Assembly (NCBI GenBank): GCA_000004985.1
Contig: GG738876.1
Length of the DNA: 64,000 nucleotides
Strand: one strand, 5' to 3'
From: Naegleria gruberi
Lineage: Eukaryota
Shown: positions 13,855-35,056 of the stretch, piece by piece
Position numbering within the stretch: position 1 is the stretch's first letter
Layout of the letters: each line of letters starts with the position of its first letter
Program-made: the position numbers and the translations under genes
Notes under the pieces: generated by a model
Databases searched by the model: none
Told to the model about the DNA's origin: nothing
Seen by the model: only the letters and a program-made list of their open reading frames with translations

Positions 13855-15183
13855 ATGAATCATCTTAAACGATTGATTGTTTTGGCTCTTGTAGTTGTAC
13901 TCATGTTTGTCGTCTCACTTTCACATGCTCAAGACGAACAACAGGAAAACAACAATAAGAGACCACCAAGACCTTTACCTTCAGGTAGACCACCAAGACC
14001 ACATCCAGATCATTCTGGAGGGCGACCACCTCGCCCATTCCCATCTGGAGGAAGACCACCACGTCCAGATCATTCAGGAAGAAGACCAAGACCAGATCAT
14101 TCTGGTGAGAGACCACATCCACCAGGTCCACAACCAGATCATTCAGGAAGAAGACCACCAAGACCTGGTCCACATCCTGGTCAATCAGGATTACCACCAC
14201 GTTCTGATGAACAAGATGGTCAAAGTGAAAATAGACCTCGTCCACCAAGACCTCATCCAGAACGTTCAGGTGAAAGACCACATCCAAGACCTTTCCCATC
14301 TGGAGGTAGACCACCAAGACCAGACCACTCAGGAAGAAGACCAGGTCCACATCCAGATCATTCTGGAAGACCACCTCGTCCACATCCAAGACCAGAACCA
14401 TCTTCTGAAGATGACGAACACTCTGATAGACTTGAACAAGGAAACAGACCTCGTCCACCAAGACCAGATCGTTCAGGTTTGCCACCTCGTCCATTCCCAT
14501 CTGGAGGAAGACCACCAAGACCAGATCATTCAGGAAGAAGACCACATCCAAGACCTGAACACTCTGGTGAGAGACCACATCCAAGACCAGCTCACTCTGG
14601 TGAAAGACCACCAAGACCAGATCATTCAGGAAGAAGACCAAGACCAGGTCCACAACCAGACCAATCGGGAAGACCACCTCGTCCTTATCCAGAACATTCT
14701 GGTGAAAGACCAGGCCCACGTCCTCAACCACAAGAATCAACTTCATCCTTAATAGGTGAAAGACCACCAAGACCTGATAGATCTGGAAGACCACCTCGTC
14801 CATTCCCATCTGGAGGCAGACCACCAAGACCAGGCCCATCTGGAGGAAGACCAGGTCCTGGACCAGGTCCACAACCTGATGTTTCATCTGTTGAAGATCC
14901 ACTCATTGATGCTCAAAATAATACCAAGAATGAAATTCCAAATGGACCATCCAATGGTTCTGATGCTTTGGCCATTGTCTTTGGTGTTATTGGTGCAATT
15001 GTTGTCATGGCTGCTATTGCTCTTGTCATTGGAAGTGGAATTGCTGTTTTTGTTTTGAAGAAGAAGGGTTATTCACTCTCATTGAAGAAACATCAAATGT
15101 TGAGAGATGAAGACGAATTTGAATATCCACAACAAGACCAAACTCCAATTTACTCTGTCAATCAACCAGTTGCTCAAAATTAG
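13855..15183 (+). CDS. Pro/Arg/His-rich tandem-repeat type I membrane protein (extensin/mucin-like)
   Basis: Signal peptide MNHLKRLIVLALVVVLMFVVSLSHA; about 25 degenerate units of RPPRPDHSG(R/E)RP; C-terminal TM IVFGVIGAIVVMAAIALVIGSGIAVFVL and cytoplasmic tail. Antisense ORF 13901..14902 is a repeat artefact. Confidence 0.75.
   Translation: MNHLKRLIVLALVVVLMFVVSLSHAQDEQQENNNKRPPRPLPSGRPPRPHPDHSGGRPPRPFPSGGRPPRPDHSGRRPRPDHSGERPHPPGPQPDHSGRRPPRPGPHPGQSGLPPRSDEQDGQSENRPRPPRPHPERSGERPHPRPFPSGGRPPRPDHSGRRPGPHPDHSGRPPRPHPRPEPSSEDDEHSDRLEQGNRPRPPRPDRSGLPPRPFPSGGRPPRPDHSGRRPHPRPEHSGERPHPRPAHSGERPPRPDHSGRRPRPGPQPDQSGRPPRPYPEHSGERPGPRPQPQESTSSLIGERPPRPDRSGRPPRPFPSGGRPPRPGPSGGRPGPGPGPQPDVSSVEDPLIDAQNNTKNEIPNGPSNGSDALAIVFGVIGAIVVMAAIALVIGSGIAVFVLKKKGYSLSLKKHQMLRDEDEFEYPQQDQTPIYSVNQPVAQN
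13960..14880 (+). repeat. Coding tandem repeat array (27-36 nt units encoding RPPRPDHSGRRP)
   Basis: Recurring agaccaccaagaccagatcattcaggaagaagacca-like units are visible directly in the sequence. Confidence 0.8.
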
Positions 15184-26675: not shown

Positions 26676-28520
26676 TTGAAAGAAAGTAAGAGTAAAGGGT
26701 TTATTAATCATTCAAAAAGAATGTCAACAATACTTTCGAATAGTTTATTCATCATTACTTTACTCTTGCTTGTTGTTTCGAATAGTTACCAATCAACCAA
26801 CAACAGCAACTTGACAACCGTTACTTCATTCTACTACCCACAATACGAATGTCTCAAACACACTCCAGTCAACCAATTCTACTATCCTTTCATGTTCACT
26901 CTCGATACTCCCTTCTATGATTATTGTAAATTGCCAACGATTGGAAATGCACCACAAGATTTCTATAAGGACTCTCAATTGATCAGTTCATTATTGGATG
27001 GTTCATTCTCTTGTGTTGATTTCCTGTGTTCCAATGACAAGGAATGGAACCTTTCGAATAAGACTCAGCTCACTACACTTGGAGTCATGTGGAATTATTG
27101 TTTTTATTGTAATACTGAGGGAAGAAATTCATCATCAATTAATTCGACAAGTGAAATATTTAGAGAAAAACTAATGTTGGGTCAATGTGATGCATTTTCA
27201 ATTGCAAATTCATCGTTGAATTTCTTGGAGAATTTCAATCGAGTTTCGAATAGGCATTGTAATGGAGATAGCTATGTGGAGAGACGTCATTTACCATTCC
27301 TTGAATATTACTTTTTCCAAACAGATTACTTTATCAATTCGTTTGCTAGATATAGAAAGAATAATTTCAATGAAGTTTATTCTGATGCAAAGACTTACAT
27401 TTCCAAAGTTAAACTTCAATCCATTCTCACCTTTTATTTTAAAGATTTATTCGAAAGGTCAACACTTGATTCAGCCCCTCTCAACATTCCAGTTTCATGT
27501 TGGTGTGATTATGGATCTAGCTCCAAAACCATTGGTTTTCAATGCTACGATTATTATCAGGGATGGCAATTATTATGTACCTATAGAATATGTGTTGTGA
27601 TATTTACTCTATTATATGGCAGTTGTTCATTGTTTTATTCATTGGTTTTGGTGGTACCGAGAATTGTGGAGAGAATTTCCTCATTCAAACAGAGAAATGA
27701 TATTAGATTAATGGAAACTAATTGTAAGAAACCTCTCTATTTCATTAGACATTTTTTAGATATTGTAACACAACCTCCAATTTTCTTTACATTATCTGCA
27801 TTCTTTGGAATGTTGGAAAACTGTTTCAGATTTCTATTTAATTTTAGTGTTTTTAATGGATTTTTCAATTCTTTCTATTCGGGAATTTTTAGATCGATTT
27901 CAATTGGTTTGGCATGTTGTGGATATTCTGCATTGGTTATTTCATGGGCTCATGTGATTGATTTGGCAAAGAGAAAGACATCCTCTGCTCCCTTTTCAAG
28001 TCAATTGTCAAAATTGAATGTTGTAATCTTGACAATTTGTTACATTGGCATGTTAATATCAGGAATTGTGAGTGCAATCATTTTGATTGTTGTGAAGAAC
28101 TCATCTACTGGTTATATCTTCTTGACAGTTGCTGTACTGATCTATCTCTTTACATTTGTAGTTGGCTTTGCATTTTATGGAATCAAGATTTTACTTTCCC
28201 TCAGAAAAACCTCAGATACTAGCTCAATTATTGAGTATCGTTTCACCAAATTCATTCTATTAGAAACGGTCTTCTTCCTTATTGGTTGGATTGTTTCACT
28301 CTTCATGTTAGTTTCGTACGTGTTTGGTTTCGATTCGATGGGACTTTTCTGGGGACTCAATAGAAATATTTTCATGGATACCATGTTGAATGCAGTTTCC
28401 ATTCTCTCATGTTACATTACTTTCAATAGGAATGCATTCGAAATGGTGTATGGAAAGAAGTTTCTTTCATTGTGTTCATGTGAAAAGAATAATGATACTA
28501 CAAGTGATAATAAACAATAA
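26676..28520 (+). CDS. 7-transmembrane receptor-like protein with signal peptide and Cys-rich N-terminal ectodomain
   Basis: Signal peptide. An ectodomain of about 300 aa carries about 13 Cys and many N-glycosylation sequons. Seven hydrophobic helices follow (VVIFTLLYGSCSLFYSLVLVV ... ISIGLACCGYSALVISWAHVI ... IFMDTMLNAVSILSCYITF), then a short tail. Confidence 0.6.
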   Translation: MKESKSKGFINHSKRMSTILSNSLFIITLLLLVVSNSYQSTNNSNLTTVTSFYYPQYECLKHTPVNQFYYPFMFTLDTPFYDYCKLPTIGNAPQDFYKDSQLISSLLDGSFSCVDFLCSNDKEWNLSNKTQLTTLGVMWNYCFYCNTEGRNSSSINSTSEIFREKLMLGQCDAFSIANSSLNFLENFNRVSNRHCNGDSYVERRHLPFLEYYFFQTDYFINSFARYRKNNFNEVYSDAKTYISKVKLQSILTFYFKDLFERSTLDSAPLNIPVSCWCDYGSSSKTIGFQCYDYYQGWQLLCTYRICVVIFTLLYGSCSLFYSLVLVVPRIVERISSFKQRNDIRLMETNCKKPLYFIRHFLDIVTQPPIFFTLSAFFGMLENCFRFLFNFSVFNGFFNSFYSGIFRSISIGLACCGYSALVISWAHVIDLAKRKTSSAPFSSQLSKLNVVILTICYIGMLISGIVSAIILIVVKNSSTGYIFLTVAVLIYLFTFVVGFAFYGIKILLSLRKTSDTSSIIEYRFTKFILLETVFFLIGWIVSLFMLVSYVFGFDSMGLFWGLNRNIFMDTMLNAVSILSCYITFNRNAFEMVYGKKFLSLCSCEKNNDTTSDNKQ

Positions 28521-29047: not shown

Positions 29048-32017
29048 ATGTCTTCGTACGGAACGCACGGCGATGGTGGAGATGGGTTGGAATCGAGTAA
29101 ACAACTCAATGTGCTCCAAAAGATTGCTAGAAATAGAGTGGTGAATATTGTTGGTGCGATAATATTATCAATTATTTTATTATTGAGTATTGGATGTTGT
29201 GTTGTTGTTGGTGTGCTTCATTCACATTTGCTTTTCCAATGTGGATTTGCTGAATTTATATTTATGTTACTTCTTGAAGGCGCTACATTCTTCTTCTGTA
29301 TTTATCACTTGTACAATATTTACAAGTTTTTCAAGACTAGAGCACGACACTCTGGTAAGAAGGGAATTTCCGCTATTGTTGCTGCTTTATGTTCATCAGA
29401 AGTAAATCAATACAATGCATATTCTGATTCCAGACAAGGAAATGAAGAAGATGATTTTGATGATGAAGAAGATGATGAAGATGACGAAGAAGAGGAGGAA
29501 GAAGAAAGCAAATTTTCCAAGTTTGTTGTCGGCTTTTTGAAGATTGCTGCCAATGCTATTGCTGTTTTATGTTTCATCATTTTGGTACTTTTCACAGTTG
29601 TTGTCGTTCCATTGCAACAACAAACCTACCCAACTTATAACGGTACTCTTAAACTTCCAAAGTTTACACCAAAGGGATCTTCTGCTCCTACAATTTCACG
29701 TGAAAGTAATGGTGTTGTTCACATCAAGGCTTCACACGATTATGATTTATATTTCGCACAAGGTGTAGCTGTTGCTCAAGATCGTTTGTGGCAATTGGAA
29801 TTTAATCGTAGATTGTCAAATGGTATTTTGGCTGAAGTTGCTGGTGCTGATGCTGTCAATGTTGACAGTTGGTTCAGAACTCTCGGATTTGCTCGTTCTG
29901 CTGCCAACATTTTACCAACCATTGATGCTGAAACTCTTTCATTCATTCAAGCATATTGTGATGGTATTAACTCTTATATTAATAGTAATCCACCACTTCA
30001 ACCTGAATTTGTTCTCCTCAACACTAAACCAGTTGAATGGACTCCAAGTGATGTTATTGCTTATATGAAGTTTGTTTCATTCTCTCTTTCTGATAATATG
30101 GAAAAGGAAGTTTGGAGATTCAAGATGATGCAAAGAAATATCACAAAGGACAGAGTTAACGAATTGGTTCCTTTCTACCCAACTGATATGCCAACTATTT
30201 TGAGTTTGGAAGAAATGAATTTGCAAAACGTTCCAGTTGAAGAAAGAGAAAAGATTGAAAAGGCTCAACAAGATGATTCTGCTGCTTTTATTCCAAAGGC
30301 TATTCACAATTTGACCATGTCTGTCATGGAAGAAATGTTCGCTTCATTGGAAGAATCTGGTGAATGGGGTAAACAAGCTGTCAGATCAGTTTTGAAGGGT
30401 ATGGTTGCTCCAGATATCACTGGTAACAAGGCCTCAAACAATTGGGTTCTCGGAACCAAGATTACAGCAAACAATGGATCATTGTTGGCTAACGATCCTC
30501 ATTTGGATTTGACTGCTCCAGGTATTTGGTATTTGGCTCATTTGGAAGGTCCAACTCACAATGTTATTGGTTCTACTTTTGTTGGTCTTCCAGGTATTGT
30601 TATTGGTAAGAATGATTTCATTTCATGGGGTGTTACTACTGGTCTTGTTGATGCTCAAGATTTGTACGTCATGTCCGAAGTTGAAGAAGGTAAAACTTAC
30701 AACTACAATGGTAAAGTTCTCCAATATGAAACTCGTACCGAAACTATTAATGTTAAGGGAGCTGCTGCCAAGACTATTACTGTTAAGGAATCTGTCTACG
30801 GTCCAGTTATTAATGACCACTACCAAGTTGATGGTAACGTTTTGTGTTTGAAGTCTTTGACTACCTACACTAATGATACCACACTCCAAGCTTTCCTCAA
30901 GTTGAACAGAGAAGCTAAGGATTGGAACTCATTTGTTGATGTTGTCTCCTTGTTCGTTTCCCCATCCCAAAACTTTGTCTTTGCTGACAAGAGTGGTAAC
31001 ATTGGTTACTATTTGGCTGGTTTGGTTCCAATTAGAAAGGAAGGTCACAATGGTAGATTCCCAGTTATTGGTGATGGTAGCTATGATTGGCAAGGATTTA
31101 TTCCAGCTGCTGAAAAGCCAAGCGTTTACAATCCAAAGAAGGATTACATTGCTTCTGCAAACAACAGAGTTACTCCTGTTGGTTACAAGTACAGTATTAC
31201 CCAAGATTGGTACTCTTTCTATAGAGCTAGCAGAATTGTCTCATTGATTGAAACTGCTATTGAAAAGGGAACTCCACTCAATTTTGAATACATGAAGAAG
31301 ATGCAACACGACGTTCACTCACCAGTCTTTGATCAATTCAAGTTTGTTTTTGAAGCTATTCCAAAGTTCAGAAATCTCACTGAAAATAAGGAAAAGTTGA
31401 GAGAAAAGTTGATTAATTGGGACGGTGATGAAATTTTGTACTCTCAATCTGCTTCCATCTTTGAAATGTGGTACAAGATTATGGGTAACCTCACCAAGGT
31501 TGAAACTGTCAATAGATGGTCTTTCGGTCCATATCTTTACAATGCCTTGAAGAATGGTGATAGTGCTTGTGAAAATTATCACAACACTACTTGTATGTTG
31601 TTCGCTATTGACAGCTTTGAAAATGCCATTGATGCTCTTGAAGCCACTTACGGTTCTATTCCATTGTGGGGTTCTGATATTCACGAATCTGAATTCCCTA
31701 ACCCGGTAATGGATAATACTGTTCTCAAATGTTTGGCTGGAGCTACTCGTACTACTGTTGGTGGTTCTTCAACCATTAATGTTGGTGAAACTCAATATCC
31801 TGCCCTCAATTCAAGATGGGGTGTTTCTTATAGACAAGTTGTTGATTGGCGAGGCAATCAAGCTTCATTCATCATTCCACTCGGTCAATCTGGTAACTTC
31901 TTATCTCCTCTTTACACCAACTTGTTAGAAATGTGGTCTGACCCAACTGGTCAATACTTGGACATGAAATCTGCTGGTTACACTGCAACCAATACCCTTT
32001 CTCTTTCCTCTCAATAA
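29048..32017 (+). CDS. Membrane-anchored penicillin-amidase-family Ntn hydrolase (peptidase S45; AHL-acylase/aculeacin-acylase-like)
   Basis: N-terminal TM helices, poly-acidic linker EEDDFDDEEDDEDDEEEEEEE, further TM helix, then the full amidase domain. The beta-subunit N-terminal nucleophile context is GNKASNNWVLGTKITANNGSLLANDPHLDLTAPGIWYLAHL (compare E. coli PGA SNMWVIG...VNGPQFGW). ATG at 29048. Confidence 0.8.
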   Translation: MSSYGTHGDGGDGLESSKQLNVLQKIARNRVVNIVGAIILSIILLLSIGCCVVVGVLHSHLLFQCGFAEFIFMLLLEGATFFFCIYHLYNIYKFFKTRARHSGKKGISAIVAALCSSEVNQYNAYSDSRQGNEEDDFDDEEDDEDDEEEEEEESKFSKFVVGFLKIAANAIAVLCFIILVLFTVVVVPLQQQTYPTYNGTLKLPKFTPKGSSAPTISRESNGVVHIKASHDYDLYFAQGVAVAQDRLWQLEFNRRLSNGILAEVAGADAVNVDSWFRTLGFARSAANILPTIDAETLSFIQAYCDGINSYINSNPPLQPEFVLLNTKPVEWTPSDVIAYMKFVSFSLSDNMEKEVWRFKMMQRNITKDRVNELVPFYPTDMPTILSLEEMNLQNVPVEEREKIEKAQQDDSAAFIPKAIHNLTMSVMEEMFASLEESGEWGKQAVRSVLKGMVAPDITGNKASNNWVLGTKITANNGSLLANDPHLDLTAPGIWYLAHLEGPTHNVIGSTFVGLPGIVIGKNDFISWGVTTGLVDAQDLYVMSEVEEGKTYNYNGKVLQYETRTETINVKGAAAKTITVKESVYGPVINDHYQVDGNVLCLKSLTTYTNDTTLQAFLKLNREAKDWNSFVDVVSLFVSPSQNFVFADKSGNIGYYLAGLVPIRKEGHNGRFPVIGDGSYDWQGFIPAAEKPSVYNPKKDYIASANNRVTPVGYKYSITQDWYSFYRASRIVSLIETAIEKGTPLNFEYMKKMQHDVHSPVFDQFKFVFEAIPKFRNLTENKEKLREKLINWDGDEILYSQSASIFEMWYKIMGNLTKVETVNRWSFGPYLYNALKNGDSACENYHNTTCMLFAIDSFENAIDALEATYGSIPLWGSDIHESEFPNPVMDNTVLKCLAGATRTTVGGSSTINVGETQYPALNSRWGVSYRQVVDWRGNQASFIIPLGQSGNFLSPLYTNLLEMWSDPTGQYLDMKSAGYTATNTLSLSSQ

Positions 32018-32195
32018 TTTAAAGTCATTATTAAATAAATAATCTAGTTTGTATATATTTACTGTTGTTGTTAATATGAAAGAAGCGTTTCTGTGGCGAA
32101 ATTCAACATCTTCAACTGGATTCACTGAGGTTTGATCATTGTCACTTTTCAATATCTTCCTGAAAAGGGCACAAACTAAAGTTGAAAAAAACAAA

Positions 32196-33590
32196 ATGAC
32201 CAATGCCAGTTCTTCCACAACACGAACAACAAGTGCAAGCTACAGACAGCAAAAATTGAAAAGTAAACAAATAGATAATCAACTGTACGGAAATTTATCA
32301 GCACAACTTGTCTCCACCAACAACAATCAGCTCCAACTTGAACAATTACAAAAAACAACGAGACCTCTTCGAATATTATTGATGGGACCAAGAAATTGCG
32401 GAATTAAAACCTTTCTAATGAATGCTCTTGATATGGAAGCTGATGATTTCATGATTCGAACCATGTTATCAATGTCTCATAGAGTGAATCAAATTTCGAA
32501 TAGTAATCTTGCTGGACTTGATGATACAGAACTTACACGTCCATTGACTTTTCAACAAAAGGCAGAGGGTCTCTTTTCAGAGAAGAATAGAAATCTGACG
32601 CTCAATGTGTACATGTATATTTGTAGAGGAATCAAAGTTTTTGTAAAATGGGAATGGAAATATTTTGAAAGATTGAAGAGGAAAATTCATGAAAATTATG
32701 AACATCATCATTATCATGAGGAACATTTTGATTTGGTTTATAATTGGGAAGGTGACGAAGATGGTAAATTATTGGATGAGTTGATAAATGATTGTCGAGA
32801 GCAGAAACAATTGAATTCCAAAATTATTTCAATTTATTCCAAAATTGTGAATTATGGAAAAAAGGAAGTAATGAACGAATTTTACAATTCATTATTAAGA
32901 TCGACAAATATTAGATATTTGGATAATATTCAATAGTATGTTTGTCATAAGTTCAAATTTCATTCAAAAAATTTCAGTTTTTTCACACTTGATGCTTTCA
33001 ATAGAATTACTTCCAATGATTACAAGCCACTCAACCAAGATTTGCTCAAATCTCATCATCCAGACGATAAGGGAATTATTTCAATTCGGAGGGATGAGTT
33101 TGAATTTATTGACATTACAGGTCAATTGAATGAAAGAAGAAAGTGGATTCATCAATTTTCCAACTCTATTGATGTTATAATGTTCTTCATTCCAATTTCA
33201 GATTACAATCTAATCAATCCACTGACTGGAATGAATAGACTTGATGAGGCTTTTCATTTATACAATGAAATTCAAACAACGAAACTTTTTGAGAGAGCTG
33301 ACATTTCAATCATGTTAACAAAAATGGATTTGTTTAAAAAGAAACTAGTTTTGGATCCAATTTCGAATTATTTTGAAAAGTTTCAAGCGTCGAATGGAAA
33401 TTTAAAAGAAACTATGGAAGTGATGAGAGGAATATTTAGTCAAAATTTTGGGGAAGATTCGAATTATAGGAGACTGTTTGTGCATCAGGTTGATTTGACT
33501 GATGTGAATGATTTTAAAGTGGTTTATAGAGGAATTTCCAGTTCTCTTCGATTGGGAACTTTCATTTCAATTTTTGCTAGAAGGAGATGA
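32196..33590 (+). CDS. Divergent G-protein alpha-subunit-like protein with degenerate P-loop; 2 exons
   Basis: Exon 1 32196..32935 and exon 2 32978..33590, joined by a 42-nt intron (GTATGT...TTTCAG). The splice yields ...YFFTLDAFNRITSNDYKPLNQDLL...ISIRRDEFEFIDITGQLNERRKWIHQF, colinear with G-alpha YFL.DLDRI..P.Y.PT.QD.L..R..T.GI.E..F...DVGGQRSERKKWIHCF. NKXD is TKMD and the P-loop is GPRNCGIKT instead of GAGESGKST. Confidence 0.75.
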
Positions 33591-33613
33591 AACCTTTCGA
33601 ATAATTTACAATT

Positions 33614-35056
33614 TTATTGAGAATTTTGATGTTTCATAACCAAACCATGAATCTTTTTAACTCTCATTTCCTTGAGGAATTCCATCGAAAGTTTGAACCT
33701 GTAATGAGAATCCAACATTACAATTTCAATTTCCTTCTCCAAGAAATCAAACAAATCGTCTGGAAGCGACGAAATTTGACGATTCTTATACAATTCAATT
33801 TGAAACAAAACATCATGTGTGGACTTCTTATCAATATTTACAGATTTAGGGCCATTAACATTCAGGAATTCTTCATATATTTCCTGAGCTAATTGGAATT
33901 TCTTTGCTTCAACAACTTCTAATTCAGTTTCGAGTTCTTGAGTAGTTGAAAGATTTTTCTTTCTCTTGGTTGTTGGTTGACCAACACTGAGAGAAGTATT
34001 GGATTTGGAAGACTGATCAACAACAGAGATGGTGGAAGGAGTTGCGTTATTGGAAACTTCAGATAATTCGAAAGAAACGCTACCTAAACTATTAGAACTT
34101 TCAGTTTCTTCACTCAATGTTTGAACCAATTCAATTTGATATTCACACAATCGCTTGTACTGCTGAACTTTTTCAAGGAATTCAAAGTTTTCAGAGTTAA
34201 ATTCCTTCTTACAATGATTCTTAAAGAGATTTCTCAATCTGTCATTATTCATGGTGTGTGAAATGTCAACTGCTAGTGCTTCTCTTAATTTTTGAACATT
34301 GTTGGAGTCTGATCTAATAGCCAACCCAAAAACAAAGATAATGACTGGAACTGTAACTACAACTGCCAAGCAAATAATTGATAATGAAGTTATGGACATA
34401 GCATTAGTGATTTTTGACACTTGTTCTTGAGAAGCAAGTACATAATCAAGTACAACATCTTGTGCAGTTCTAAAAGTGTTTCTTCTTGCGATATAAGTGG
34501 CGGAAGTAAGCAATCGAACAGCTTCCGTAAAGTTTCCATCTCTAATATTCGAAACAGCTTGAGAATCAGTATCAGTCAAATAATTAACAATTCCCTGCAA
34601 ATTATTTCTATACTGCTGCGAAATACTCTGAGGTATCTTTTGAAGCATATTTTCAGTCAACTCATCATTCACTTTCGAATAATTATTATAATAAGCCAAA
34701 TATCCCTCATTTCCCGAATAGGCAGCCACCAACGTATAAGCTTGAATATAGGCAGTATACGTAGATACCTTCGCTCTAGTAGCCAACAAATCAATATCCT
34801 CATTCATCTGACTATTTTCACTATAAATCAGCAAACCAAGGAGAATGAGGAAAGTAATGGTATTGAGGACCATGGCAACCATTGCAAAGATTTTAATGAA
34901 ATTCAATTCGAGTTTGAAGAAACAGCAGTGGACTGTGAAGGTTTTTGGCTGTTTTTGATGTTTACGAAAGGAATCGTCGAGAGAGGATTGCTGGCGTTTG
35001 AGAGGAGGTGAAGATTCAATGCTTGTTTCGATTGGTTTCTTTGTTTCGTTTTCCAT
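33614..35056 (-). CDS. RGS-domain protein with two TM helices flanking a roughly 150-aa ectodomain (sensor-like topology)
   Basis: RGS motifs FKNHCKKEFNSENFEFLEKVQQYK, AQEIYEEFLNVNGPKSVNID and FDFLEKEIEIVMLDSHYRFKLS, with an S/T-rich insert. N-terminal TM FIKIFAMVAMVLNTITFLILLGLLIY and second TM ITSLSIICLAVVVTVPVIIFVFGLAI lie upstream of the RGS domain. Confidence 0.8.
   Translation of the reverse strand: MENETKKPIETSIESSPPLKRQQSSLDDSFRKHQKQPKTFTVHCCFFKLELNFIKIFAMVAMVLNTITFLILLGLLIYSENSQMNEDIDLLATRAKVSTYTAYIQAYTLVAAYSGNEGYLAYYNNYSKVNDELTENMLQKIPQSISQQYRNNLQGIVNYLTDTDSQAVSNIRDGNFTEAVRLLTSATYIARRNTFRTAQDVVLDYVLASQEQVSKITNAMSITSLSIICLAVVVTVPVIIFVFGLAIRSDSNNVQKLREALAVDISHTMNNDRLRNLFKNHCKKEFNSENFEFLEKVQQYKRLCEYQIELVQTLSEETESSNSLGSVSFELSEVSNNATPSTISVVDQSSKSNTSLSVGQPTTKRKKNLSTTQELETELEVVEAKKFQLAQEIYEEFLNVNGPKSVNIDKKSTHDVLFQIELYKNRQISSLPDDLFDFLEKEIEIVMLDSHYRFKLSMEFLKEMRVKKIHGLVMKHQNSQ

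What the first reader, a model, noticed from the sequence alone, without database searches (positions are those of the whole stretch)
29048..32017. Bacterial-type penicillin-amidase/AHL-acylase (Ntn hydrolase S45) in a eukaryotic gene, with TM anchors and a poly-acidic linker
The peptidase S45 family (penicillin G acylase, aculeacin A acylase, PvdQ/QuiP AHL acylases) is overwhelmingly bacterial. This ORF has the autoproteolytic Ser nucleophile context G-N-K-A-S|NNWVLG...NDPHLD and a full-length beta-subunit. It has also acquired eukaryotic features: N-terminal TM helices, a 20-residue Glu/Asp tract, AT-rich codon usage and native-looking flanking genes. It is a candidate horizontal gene transfer that has been domesticated as a membrane ecto-enzyme, possibly acting on N-acyl homoserine lactones or lipopeptides from bacteria.
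Basis: partly seen in the sequence, partly recalled or inferred. Interest (0 to 1): 0.75.

Follow-up and report, generated by a model that had tools for sequence, protein, structure and literature searches.

The report
Membrane-anchored penicillin-amidase-family gene in Naegleria
This is a real but already annotated Naegleria gruberi gene for a membrane-anchored enzyme of the bacterial penicillin-amidase (S45) family; it belongs to an old eukaryote-only branch of that family rather than being a recent bacterial import, and its substrate is unknown.

Summary
Window 29048-32017 (+) is one intronless 989-codon ORF. It has a full-length peptidase-S45 / penicillin-amidase domain (Pfam E=8.6e-180), an intact catalytic set (Ser463, His485, Asn705, Arg729), three N-terminal hydrophobic helices and a 21-residue tract with 20 Asp/Glu.

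The window is Naegleria gruberi. The gene is already annotated there as 'penicillin amidase', although that model starts 72 residues too late. Homologues in N. fowleri and Willaertia magna are already mentioned in the literature.

- **Age:** the gene is not a recent or Naegleria-specific transfer. It has orthologues at 73% (N. fowleri) and 55% (Willaertia) identity, and at 43-47% on unidentified contigs, one of them shown to be eukaryotic. It also has an old paralogue and host-like codon usage.
- **Phylogeny:** it sits in a group of about 35 long proteins, most with the same three-helix anchor. The nearest bacterial relatives are Thermaceae, Rubrobacter and cyanobacterial enzymes (38-42% identity).
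- **Anchor:** the third helix matches the bacterial N-terminal membrane anchor. Only the two-helix hairpin and the acidic loop are eukaryotic additions.
- **Substrate:** the Thermus thermophilus enzyme, the one characterised enzyme from the closest-matching bacterial family (its own sequence was not placed here), prefers octanoyl-penicillin and shows no acyl-homoserine-lactone activity. The quorum-quenching idea therefore has no support.

Ordinary to moderately interesting.

The parts
29048..32017 (+). Complete intronless coding sequence (989 codons plus stop) of the N. gruberi S45 / penicillin-amidase-family precursor
   Evidence: ORF list. Pfam PF01804 E=8.6e-180. 100% identical to the annotated N. 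gruberi protein over its 917 residues. The start at ATG 29048 is supported by the conserved MSSYGTH... N-terminus in N. fowleri and W. magna.
29048..29137 (+). Residues 1-30: predicted cytosolic N-terminal tail (low-confidence, probably disordered for residues 1-18)
   Evidence: 4 Lys/Arg in the 15 residues before TM1. pLDDT below 50 for residues 1-18.
29138..29218 (+). TM1, residues 31-57
   Evidence: Kyte-Doolittle maximum 3.01. AlphaFold helix 30-57. Conserved in orthologues. Missing from the NCBI gene model, which starts at Met73.
29219..29314 (+). Short outside loop (HSHLLFQC, residues 58-65) plus TM2 (residues 66-89), with conserved polar residues H58, H60, C65, E69, E77, C84, Y86 and H87
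   Evidence: Invariant or nearly invariant columns of alignment A1 across 10 relatives. A profile of this hairpin finds only 7 proteins among 1.84 billion representatives; five carry S45-domain sequence and two are fragments too short to reach it.
29315..29542 (+). Predicted cytosolic loop, residues 90-165, with a basic cluster (residues 93-105) at its start
   Evidence: 5 and 3 Lys/Arg flank the loop ends, against 0 in the TM1-TM2 loop and 1 after TM3. This positive-inside pattern gives an N-in, C-out topology (inference).
29444..29506 (+). Acidic tract, residues 133-153 (20 of 21 Asp/Glu), predicted disordered
   Evidence: pLDDT below 50 for residues 119-152. A tract with 13-19 Asp/Glu per 20 residues occurs in all nine other members of the Naegleria/Willaertia-type orthologue group; the next relative (P0010) has 11, and the paralogue (8) and other long relatives (4-12) have less.
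29543..29614 (+). TM3, residues 166-189: the anchor that tethers the catalytic domain, positionally equivalent to the bacterial N-terminal anchor
   Evidence: Kyte-Doolittle maximum 3.24. It aligns with the single N-terminal hydrophobic segment of the Xanthomonas homologues; the Thermus and Meiothermus homologues show the same N-terminal segment followed by the same conserved motifs. 182 of 205 proteins outside the group have exactly one such segment.
29615..30313 (+). Alpha-subunit-like region, residues 190-422
   Evidence: Matches alpha chains of solved penicillin G and glutaryl acylases at E=1e-20 to 1e-16. High pLDDT.
30314..30433 (+). Spacer (pro-peptide-like) segment, residues 423-462, immediately before the nucleophile
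   Evidence: pLDDT below 50 for residues 423-458. This stretch does not align with the solved acylases (alpha-chain matches end by about residue 368 and beta-chain matches begin at about 455-463). By analogy with the spacer of S45 precursors (PMC3461476 background) it is cleaved or displaced; this is an inference.
30434..32014 (+). Beta-subunit region, residues 463-989. Ser463 (30434-30436) is the nucleophile. His485 is at 30500-30502, Asp535/Asp538 at 30650-30652 and 30659-30661, Asn705 at 31160-31162 and Arg729 at 31232-31234.
   Evidence: Residue-by-residue alignment to E. coli penicillin G acylase beta chain: positions 1, 23, 73, 76, 241 and 263. Invariant columns S463, N464, D483, P484, H485, D535, D538, N705, R726 and R729 across 43 eukaryotic and bacterial relatives.
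32139..33590 (+). Context only: downstream G-protein alpha-subunit gene in two ORFs, joined by a putative 42-nt GT..AG intron (32936-32977)
   Evidence: Pfam G-alpha 5e-31 for the second ORF. The intron was read from the sequence and restores the frame into the second ORF; the splice is inferred.
33614..35056 (-). Context only: RGS-domain gene
   Evidence: Pfam RGS 2.1e-08.

Best explanation
The ORF is a genuine nuclear gene of Naegleria gruberi. It encodes the precursor of a membrane-anchored N-terminal-nucleophile amidohydrolase of peptidase family S45.

Proposed mechanism:
1. The protein inserts into the ER membrane with three helices: N-terminus in the cytosol, a TM1-TM2 hairpin, a cytosolic loop carrying a basic cluster and a disordered poly-Asp/Glu tract, then TM3.
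2. The roughly 800-residue catalytic domain therefore faces the lumen of the secretory/endolysosomal system or the cell surface.
3. There it cuts itself between Ala462 and Ser463. The new N-terminal Ser463 becomes the nucleophile, with His485 beside the nucleophile (the position of Gln b23 in E. coli penicillin G acylase), Asn705 and a backbone NH forming the oxyanion hole, and Arg729 in support.
4. The membrane-bound alpha chain and the beta chain stay together.
5. The enzyme removes an acyl group, most likely a medium-chain aliphatic one, from an N-acylated small molecule. A plausible source is bacteria that the amoeba eats.

Evolution: the gene belongs to an old group of eukaryotic S45 proteins in which most complete members have the hairpin + loop + anchor + S45 architecture. 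Its closest bacterial relatives are the membrane-anchored acylases of Thermaceae, Rubrobacter and cyanobacteria. A bacterial gene with its anchor was taken up long ago, before the Naegleria/Willaertia split and probably much earlier, and then gained the N-terminal hairpin.

Shown here: domain identity, conserved catalytic residues, predicted fold, conserved architecture, eukaryotic context and tree position. Inferred: topology, self-cleavage, compartment, substrate class and direction of transfer.
For: Identity:
- Pfam E=8.6e-180.
- Solved beta chains start at Ser463.
- Catalytic and calcium-site positions are conserved in this protein, its orthologues, its paralogue and the Thermaceae homologues.
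- AlphaFold model has mean pLDDT 87 and pTM 0.84. It matches D-succinylase (target TM 0.82, E=3.5e-45) and cephalosporin, penicillin G, MacQ and PvdQ acylases.

Topology:
- Three hydrophobic helices and a positive-inside pattern.
- Cys841 and Cys849 are nearly invariant across 43 eukaryotic and bacterial relatives; a disulfide between them, which would fit an extracytosolic domain, is only a guess.
- TM3 aligns with the bacterial anchor. In Thermus thermophilus that anchor was shown experimentally to hold the enzyme on the outer face of the cytoplasmic membrane (PMC3461476).

Spacer: the low-confidence segment 423-458 lies directly before Ser463.

Substrate class: positions b24 = Leu and b57 = Ile. 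The Thermus paper links Ile at b57 to a preference for aliphatic acyl chains.

Evolution:
- NJ bootstraps: Naegleria + Willaertia 100%; a 14-member group including the paralogues 100%; a 16-member group of long proteins 100% in the first tree; a 35-member group 61-65%; that group plus the Thermaceae/Rubrobacter/cyanobacterial group 88-95%.
- The best bacterial genome matches are Meiothermus 40%, Thermaceae 39% and Thermus 38%. Deinococcus follows at 33-35%, Chloroflexota at 33-34% and most named Proteobacteria at 30-33% (compare).
- Members of the group lie on contigs with cohesin STAG and synaptobrevin, DOT1, or CENP-C and IFT57 neighbours.
- 27 of the 32 members that appear complete have two or more hydrophobic segments upstream of the anchor, whereas 182 of 205 proteins outside the group have exactly one segment in all.
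- Codon usage is like the host's.

Expression of relatives: the N. fowleri protein was found in extracellular-vesicle and immunogenic-band proteomes (PMC9312180, PMC7350353). A W. magna transcript was detected (PMC7285305).
Against: - No experiment on any member of the eukaryotic group was found, so self-cleavage, topology, compartment and substrate are all inferred.
- The trees are neighbour-joining on corrected p-distances, not maximum likelihood. Support for the full 35-member group is only 61-65%.
- Apart from Naegleria and Willaertia, the members are from unidentified organisms. One attempt to name one failed, so I cannot tell how many major eukaryotic lineages are involved.
- A few members of the 35 were not shown to be eukaryotic, and P0199, P0200 and P0240 lack a clear hairpin or are partial.
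- The Thermus thermophilus enzyme sequence itself was not available. Linking it to the sister group rests on a Thermus sp. genome hit.
- The N. fowleri protein was identified from a '100' band. If that is the mass in kDa, it would suit an uncleaved precursor rather than separated chains.
Confidence: 0.7

Rival explanations
1. One reading: a fairly recent bacterium-to-Naegleria transfer, domesticated as a surface enzyme that destroys bacterial acyl-homoserine-lactone signals (quorum quenching) or lipopeptides.
For: Family S45 includes proven acyl-homoserine-lactone acylases. The model matches MacQ and PvdQ structures, and a PvdQ model gives a weak hit. The catalytic domain is predicted to face outside the cytosol. 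Naegleria feeds on bacteria (general knowledge).
Against: - The gene has orthologues through Willaertia, on an unidentified eukaryotic contig, and an old paralogue.
- It is only 38-42% identical to the best bacterial match.
- Its codon usage is host-like.
- The PvdQ equivalog score is 47.7 against a cut-off of 950.
- The one characterised enzyme from the closest-matching bacterial family showed no activity on C4- or C8-homoserine lactone.
- Lipopeptide deacylation is not excluded; it falls under the best explanation.
Confidence: 0.1
2. The gene was never transferred. It was inherited vertically from the last eukaryotic common ancestor (or came in with an endosymbiont) and was lost in most lineages.
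For: The long three-helix proteins form a group of their own that does not nest inside any one bacterial genus. Most share an architecture found in none of the 205 other proteins sampled. The sampled bacterial neighbours form a separate cluster of their own in the unrooted tree (65% bootstrap), so the eukaryotic proteins are not nested within them.
Against: - The named relatives and solved structures found here are overwhelmingly bacterial. The only named eukaryotes among the listed relatives are Naegleria and Willaertia.
- The nearest bacteria are Deinococcota, Actinomycetota and Cyanobacteria rather than the Alphaproteobacteria expected for a mitochondrial origin.
- The taxonomic breadth of the group is unknown.
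- Separate bacterial-origin S45 genes have been reported in a ctenophore and in diplonemids (PMC6005172; preprint). This shows that such transfers do occur.
Confidence: 0.15
3. The protein is a catalytically dead S45 relic that has been reused as a membrane receptor or scaffold.
For: The conserved His/Cys/Glu pattern in the TM hairpin and the long cytosolic loop suggest functions beyond anchoring. The N. fowleri protein was found in a '100' band, which might mean an uncleaved chain.
Against: Every residue needed for self-cleavage and catalysis is conserved in this protein, its orthologues, its paralogue and more distant members. The active-site region is modelled with pLDDT above 90.
Confidence: 0.04
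4. Bacterial contamination of the assembly.
For: None beyond the bacterial family name.
Against: - The gene lies between eukaryotic genes (G-alpha with an intron, RGS) in the same window.
- Its GC3 and codon usage match its neighbours.
- Orthologues lie in eukaryotic contexts in N. fowleri and W. magna.
- The N-terminal extension is seen in none of the 205 other sampled proteins.
Confidence: 0.01

Closest known systems
Thermus thermophilus HB27 penicillin acylase (TthPAC, TTC1972; a 'penicillin K acylase')
   Same: - Thermaceae homologues are the best bacterial matches (38-40% identity over about 780-790 of the 800 ectodomain residues). They belong to the bacterial group that joins the eukaryotic group at 88-95% bootstrap.
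- The catalytic set is the same, with Leu at b24 and Ile at b57.
- An N-terminal hydrophobic anchor sits directly before the conserved start of the alpha chain. In Thermus this anchor was shown to hold the enzyme on the outer face of the membrane.
   Different: - The Naegleria protein has about 165 extra N-terminal residues: a TM hairpin, a basic cluster and an acidic tract.
- It is eukaryotic and from a mesophile.
- Its activity is untested. The TthPAC properties (best on octanoyl-penicillin, none on C4/C8 homoserine lactones, pH optimum about 4) cannot simply be carried over at 40% identity.
- I compared a Thermus sp. genome sequence, not TTC1972 itself.
D-succinylase of Cupriavidus sp. P4-10-C (PDB 7EBY/7EA4)
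   Same: It is the best solved-structure match by sequence (E=3.6e-57) and by fold (target TM 0.82). It is a single-chain S45 precursor of similar length, with the same SNNW / NDPH motifs.
   Different: Only about 24% identical. Its substrate (N-succinyl-D-amino acids, as its name says) has a polar acyl group. No polytopic anchor appears in the crystallised chain.
Escherichia coli / Kluyvera penicillin G acylase
   Same: Same family and fold. Its Ser b1, Asn b241, Arg b263, Asp b73 and Asp b76 all align with residues of this protein.
   Different: At b23 it has Gln rather than His. At b24, b57 and b71 it has the aromatic pocket residues Phe, Phe, Phe, where this protein has Leu, Ile, Leu. It is a soluble periplasmic enzyme. 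Identity is about 22%.
Acyl-homoserine-lactone acylases PvdQ and MacQ
   Same: Same family and fold, with His at b23-type chemistry.
   Different: They are remote: PvdQ chains match at E=2e-08, and the NCBIfam PvdQ equivalog scores 47.7 bits against a cut-off of 950. The fold matches are at 15-19% identity.
S45 genes already reported in other eukaryotes: Mnemiopsis leidyi ML02771a and Rhynchopus (diplonemid) penicillin amidase
   Same: Both are penicillin-amidase-family genes in eukaryotic genomes that their authors attribute to horizontal transfer, from bacteria in the Mnemiopsis case (PMC6005172; bioRxiv 10.64898/2026.01.29.702485). The preprint also notes the gene in several protists.
   Different: I could not obtain those sequences. 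It is therefore untested whether they belong to the same three-helix group or represent separate acquisitions.

Membership tests
Peptidase family S45 (penicillin amidase, Pfam PF01804) | Full-length match to the family profile above the curated cut-off | tested here: met
   600.5 bits against a cut-off of 21.3; profile positions 3-667 of 675.
Peptidase family S45 (penicillin amidase, Pfam PF01804) | Nucleophilic Ser that becomes residue 1 of the beta chain, preceded by a small residue | tested here: met
   Ala462|Ser463. Solved beta chains start at query residue 463. The column is invariant in 43 relatives.
Peptidase family S45 (penicillin amidase, Pfam PF01804) | Oxyanion-hole Asn (b241) and supporting Arg (b263); Asp b73 and Asp b76 of the calcium site | tested here: met
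   Asn705, Arg729, Asp535 and Asp538 align with the E. coli residues and are invariant in 43 relatives.
Peptidase family S45 (penicillin amidase, Pfam PF01804) | The fold of the solved S45 acylases | tested here: met
   Predicted only. The AlphaFold model (pLDDT 87) matches S45 structures with target TM 0.7-0.86.
Peptidase family S45 (penicillin amidase, Pfam PF01804) | Autoproteolytic maturation into alpha and beta chains, and amidase activity | not testable with these tools
   Needs protein expression, SDS-PAGE or mass spectrometry, and activity assays.
Thermaceae-type membrane-anchored aliphatic ('penicillin K') acylases | Closest bacterial relatives by identity and tree position | tested here: met
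   38-40% identity to Meiothermus, Thermaceae and Thermus genome hits, the best of 80 loci. The eukaryotic group joins the group containing them at 88-95% NJ bootstrap. It branches beside that group, not inside it.
Thermaceae-type membrane-anchored aliphatic ('penicillin K') acylases | Aliphatic instead of aromatic pocket residues (Ile at b57, as stated in PMC3461476) | tested here: met
   b57 = Ile and b24 = Leu in this protein and in the Thermus and Meiothermus homologues. The alpha-chain pocket position was not mapped.
Thermaceae-type membrane-anchored aliphatic ('penicillin K') acylases | Preference for octanoyl/hexanoyl substrates | not testable with these tools
   Needs enzyme kinetics. 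Literature values exist only for the Thermus enzyme.
Acyl-homoserine-lactone acylases (PvdQ equivalog) | Score above the curated equivalog cut-off | tested here: not met
   NF051460 scores 47.7 bits against a cut-off of 950, and only residues 460-661 match.
Acyl-homoserine-lactone acylases (PvdQ equivalog) | Hydrolysis of acyl-homoserine lactones | not testable with these tools
The one characterised enzyme from the closest-matching bacterial family was inactive on C4- and C8-HSL.
Recent horizontal gene transfer into Naegleria | Absent from sister taxa | tested here: not met
   Orthologues occur in N. fowleri, W. magna and on an unidentified eukaryotic contig. Paralogues occur in both Naegleria species.
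Recent horizontal gene transfer into Naegleria | Atypical composition or codon usage | tested here: not met
   GC3 0.31 against a window mean of 0.32; RSCU correlation 0.84.
Recent horizontal gene transfer into Naegleria | Nested within a specific bacterial lineage at high identity | tested here: not met
   The best bacterial identity is about 40%. The eukaryotic sequences group together rather than scattering among bacteria.

The most novel reading that the evidence does not exclude
The long three-helix proteins are a so far undescribed eukaryotic family of polytopic-membrane S45 acylases spread over several lineages. In this family the added TM hairpin is a working part of the enzyme rather than a passive anchor. 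In the Naegleria-type subgroup the hairpin carries conserved His58/His60/Cys65/Glu69/Glu77/Cys84/His87. It might bind a metal or protons, or hand membrane-embedded N-acylated lipids or bacterial lipopeptides to the catalytic domain in the phagolysosome. The acidic loop would act as a sorting signal.
Probability: 0.15. Interest if true: 0.55.

Novelty: new member of a known kind. Interest (0 to 1): 0.3.

Why it matters
The practical value is modest.

- **Gene model:** the result corrects the N. gruberi gene model, which lacks TM1 and half of TM2.
- **Reinterpretation:** a gene that several papers treat as a 'penicillin biosynthesis' or 'antibiotic' enzyme is better described as an uncharacterised, membrane-anchored, probably endolysosomal or surface N-acyl amidase of ancient bacterial ancestry.
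- **A defined family:** the work defines a eukaryotic S45 group with a shared architecture that has no characterised member.
- **Medical angle:** the N. fowleri orthologue is found in extracellular vesicles and among immunogenic antigens. Knowing that it is a membrane protein with a large exposed domain may help people working on diagnostics or vaccines for that pathogen.
- **What it does not do:** it does not open a long-standing question, and specialists would not be very surprised by it.

Tried and rejected
- **First homology search.** It suggested Xanthomonas-type Proteobacteria as the nearest bacteria. This was an effect of the word-based candidate filter. A profile of divergent eukaryotic members and a genome scan showed Thermaceae and Rubrobacter to be closer (38-42% against 30-34%).
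- **N-terminal hairpin in other proteins.** I asked whether the hairpin was borrowed from another protein family. A profile search of 1.84 billion representatives found only 7 proteins; five carry S45-domain sequence and two are fragments too short to tell. No donor family was found.
- **Synteny.** The neighbours in N. gruberi, N. fowleri and W. magna are all eukaryotic but not conserved, so they say nothing about vertical descent.
- **Gene neighbourhood of the Thermus homologue.** It holds pilin-like genes, an aldo-keto reductase, a Lon-like protease and a response regulator. None gives a clue to the substrate.
- **Naming one unidentified eukaryote.** I used a linked amino-acid permease. The best named hits were animal transporters at only 36-47% identity, so the organism stays unassigned.
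- **Cluster look-ups.** They gave no organism names for the metagenomic members.
- **Giant-virus vector.** The viral structure library gave no match at E<=0.001.
- **AlphaFold-database fold search.** It might have named more eukaryotic members, but the library was not available.
- **Genome scan with a 16-sequence alignment.** It failed because no stretch was conserved enough. I repeated it with 5 sequences.
- **N-glycosylation sites.** There are eight, about what chance would give, so I did not use them as evidence.
- **Literature.** I found no study of the Naegleria enzyme's function or origin.

Full report
**1. What is in the sequence**

Window 29048-32017 (+) is one uninterrupted ORF of 989 codons.
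- Pfam assigns residues 215-974 to PF01804 (penicillin amidase, peptidase S45) at E=8.6e-180, covering almost the whole profile.
- The only curated NCBI family hit is a weak partial match to the PvdQ model: 47.7 bits against a cut-off of 950.
- Among solved structures the best sequence matches are D-succinylase (E=3.6e-57) and penicillin G acylases. The beta chains of the latter start exactly at query Ser463.
- Residue mapping onto the E. coli beta chain gives Ser b1 = Ser463, b23 = His485, b24 = Leu, b57 = Ile, Asp b73/b76 = Asp535/Asp538, Asn b241 = Asn705 and Arg b263 = Arg729.
- Ser463, His485, Asp535, Asp538, Asn705 and Arg729 fall in invariant columns in an alignment of 43 eukaryotic and bacterial relatives.

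**2. The N-terminal region**

Hydropathy and the AlphaFold model agree on three helices: TM1 at about residues 31-57, TM2 at about 66-89 and TM3 at about 166-189. An Asp/Glu tract (20 of 21 residues, 133-153) lies in the TM2-TM3 loop.

Lys/Arg counts are 4 before TM1, 0 in the TM1-TM2 loop, 5 and 3 at the two ends of the long loop, and 1 after TM3. This fits an N-in, C-out topology with the catalytic domain outside the cytosol.

The model has mean pLDDT 87 and pTM 0.84. It is confident everywhere except residues 1-18, 119-152 (the acidic loop) and 423-458, the stretch directly before Ser463. The last behaves like the spacer peptide of S45 precursors. The model matches S45 structures only and no viral protein.

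**3. Source and context**

- The protein is 100% identical to 'penicillin amidase [Naegleria gruberi]', so the window is N. gruberi.
- That database model has 917 residues and starts at Met73, inside TM2.
- The upstream 72 residues are conserved from the first Met (MSSYGTH...) in N. fowleri and W. magna, so the longer ORF is the better model.
- Downstream lie a G-alpha gene and an RGS gene. The two ORFs of the G-alpha gene are joined by a 42-nt GT..AG intron that I read at 32936-32977.
- GC3 (0.31) and codon usage (r=0.84) match the other ORFs of the window.
- Contamination is excluded.

**4. Relatives**

- N. fowleri is 73% identical and W. magna 55%. Further full-length proteins on unidentified contigs are 43-47% identical.
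- All of these share the N-terminal module, including a motif H-x-H-L-L-F-x-C-G-x-x-E-F in the TM1-TM2 turn and conserved Glu, Cys and His residues in TM2.
- A profile of that hairpin, run against 1.84 billion representative proteins, found only seven proteins: five carry S45-domain sequence and two are fragments too short to tell.
- A second, more divergent copy exists in N. fowleri (P0013) and N. gruberi (XP_002671819, P0138). It has the same architecture and intact catalytic residues.
- More distant long proteins (945-1193 residues) have an unrelated-looking TM hairpin, a loop and an anchor helix before the S45 domain.
- Contigs carrying three such proteins have eukaryotic neighbours: cohesin STAG and synaptobrevin; DOT1 and split genes; CENP-C, IFT57 and protein kinases. 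Another member comes from a eukaryotic transcriptome collection.
- Of 205 other relatives sampled, 182 have exactly one hydrophobic segment before the conserved alpha-chain start. TM3 aligns with that segment.

**5. Phylogeny**

These are neighbour-joining trees on 721-749 trimmed columns, with Kimura or gamma-corrected distances and 100-200 bootstraps.

| Group | Bootstrap support |
|---|---|
| Naegleria + Willaertia | 100% |
| Ten-member orthologue group | 90% (Kimura tree) |
| 14-member group including the paralogues | 100% |
| 16 long proteins in the first data set | 100% |
| All 35 long proteins in the larger data set | 61-65% |
| The 35 plus a 47-member bacterial group | 88-95% |

The named members of the 47-member bacterial group are Meiothermus, Oceanithermus, a Deinococcota bacterium, Rubrobacter and cyanobacteria. 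That combined group excludes the proteobacterial enzymes.

A scan of one genome per bacterial species ranks Meiothermus (40%), a Thermaceae bacterium (39%) and Thermus (38%) first. Deinococcus follows at 33-35%, Chloroflexota at 33-34% and most named Proteobacteria at 30-33%.

The first search had missed these because of its word filter.

The gene therefore has bacterial affinities but sits in an old eukaryotic group. Nothing points to a recent Naegleria-specific event.

**6. Function**

The T. thermophilus penicillin acylase is the one characterised enzyme from the closest-matching bacterial family (PMC3461476). I could not place its own sequence.
- It is held by its N-terminus on the outer face of the cytoplasmic membrane.
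- It matures by self-cleavage.
- It prefers octanoyl-penicillin.
- It has a pH optimum near 4.
- It shows no detectable activity on C4- or C8-homoserine lactone.

The same paper links Ile at b57 to a preference for aliphatic acyl chains. The Naegleria protein and its relatives have Ile or Leu there, and mostly Leu at b24.

I therefore propose a membrane-tethered, self-processing amidase that removes a medium-chain aliphatic acyl group from an N-acylated compound on the luminal or outer side of the membrane. An acidic phagolysosome would suit an enzyme with such a pH optimum, but that is inference. The quorum-quenching reading has no specific support, though it is not excluded.

**7. What is already known**

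- A 'penicillin amidase homolog' of N. fowleri (UniProt Q25548) appears in an extracellular-vesicle proteome (PMC9312180).
- It also appears among the proteins of a '100' immunogenic band (PMC7350353).
- W. magna papers list the gene and a low-level transcript, and read it as a penicillin-biosynthesis enzyme (PMC6892926, PMC7285305).
- A diplonemid preprint reports a transferred penicillin amidase and notes the gene in several protists.
- A ctenophore study confirms a bacterial-origin penicillin acylase (PMC6005172).
- I found no analysis of the Naegleria enzyme's architecture, origin or activity.

**8. Verdict**

The gene is an ordinary, already annotated member of family S45. It belongs to an uncharacterised eukaryotic subgroup with a distinctive polytopic anchor.

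The main limits are distance-based trees, unidentified organisms for most members of the group, and no experimental data on any eukaryotic member.

Noticed in passing
window 29048-29266: The public N. gruberi protein model (917 aa) starts at Met73, inside TM2. It therefore lacks the conserved N-terminus, TM1 and half of TM2. Orthologues in N. fowleri and W. magna support the start at 29048.
   Followed up: yes
window 13855-15183 (+): This 442-codon ORF has odd composition (GC 0.47 but GC3 0.13). It encodes a signal peptide, a long run of Pro/Arg/Gly-rich repeats (GGRPPRPDHSGRRPRP-like), one TM helix and a short tail. It looks like an extensin- or mucin-like type I surface protein.
   Followed up: partly
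window 26676-28520 (+): This 599-614-residue ORF just upstream has no Pfam match. It has an N-terminal signal-like segment, a Cys-rich region of about 270 residues and at least five strongly hydrophobic segments. It may be a receptor-like membrane protein, and it sits close to the G-alpha and RGS genes.
   Followed up: partly
window 32139-35056: A divergent G-alpha gene (with a putative 42-nt intron at 32936-32977) and an RGS-domain gene lie tail to tail, only about 25 bases apart. They form a possible functional pair.
   Followed up: partly
elsewhere in N. gruberi (protein P0138 = XP_002671819, NAEGRDRAFT_73089): A second, divergent S45 paralogue has the same hairpin-loop-anchor architecture, and its N. 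fowleri counterpart (P0013) has intact catalytic residues. It is annotated only as 'predicted protein'. The N. fowleri counterpart has an N-terminal extension about 210 residues longer.
   Followed up: partly
L004 10001-19753 and the 110,447-bp contig carrying P0264 and P0281: In two related unidentified eukaryotes the S45 gene and a cationic-amino-acid-transporter gene appear to lie on the same contig (about 5 kb apart in L004). The best named relatives of the transporter are animal proteins at only 36-47% identity.
   Followed up: partly
cluster of P0012: Members of one group of S45 proteins were called as fragments of 116-232 residues on contigs of more than 400 kb. This suggests that in that organism the gene is interrupted by introns, unlike the intronless Naegleria and Willaertia genes.
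   Followed up: no
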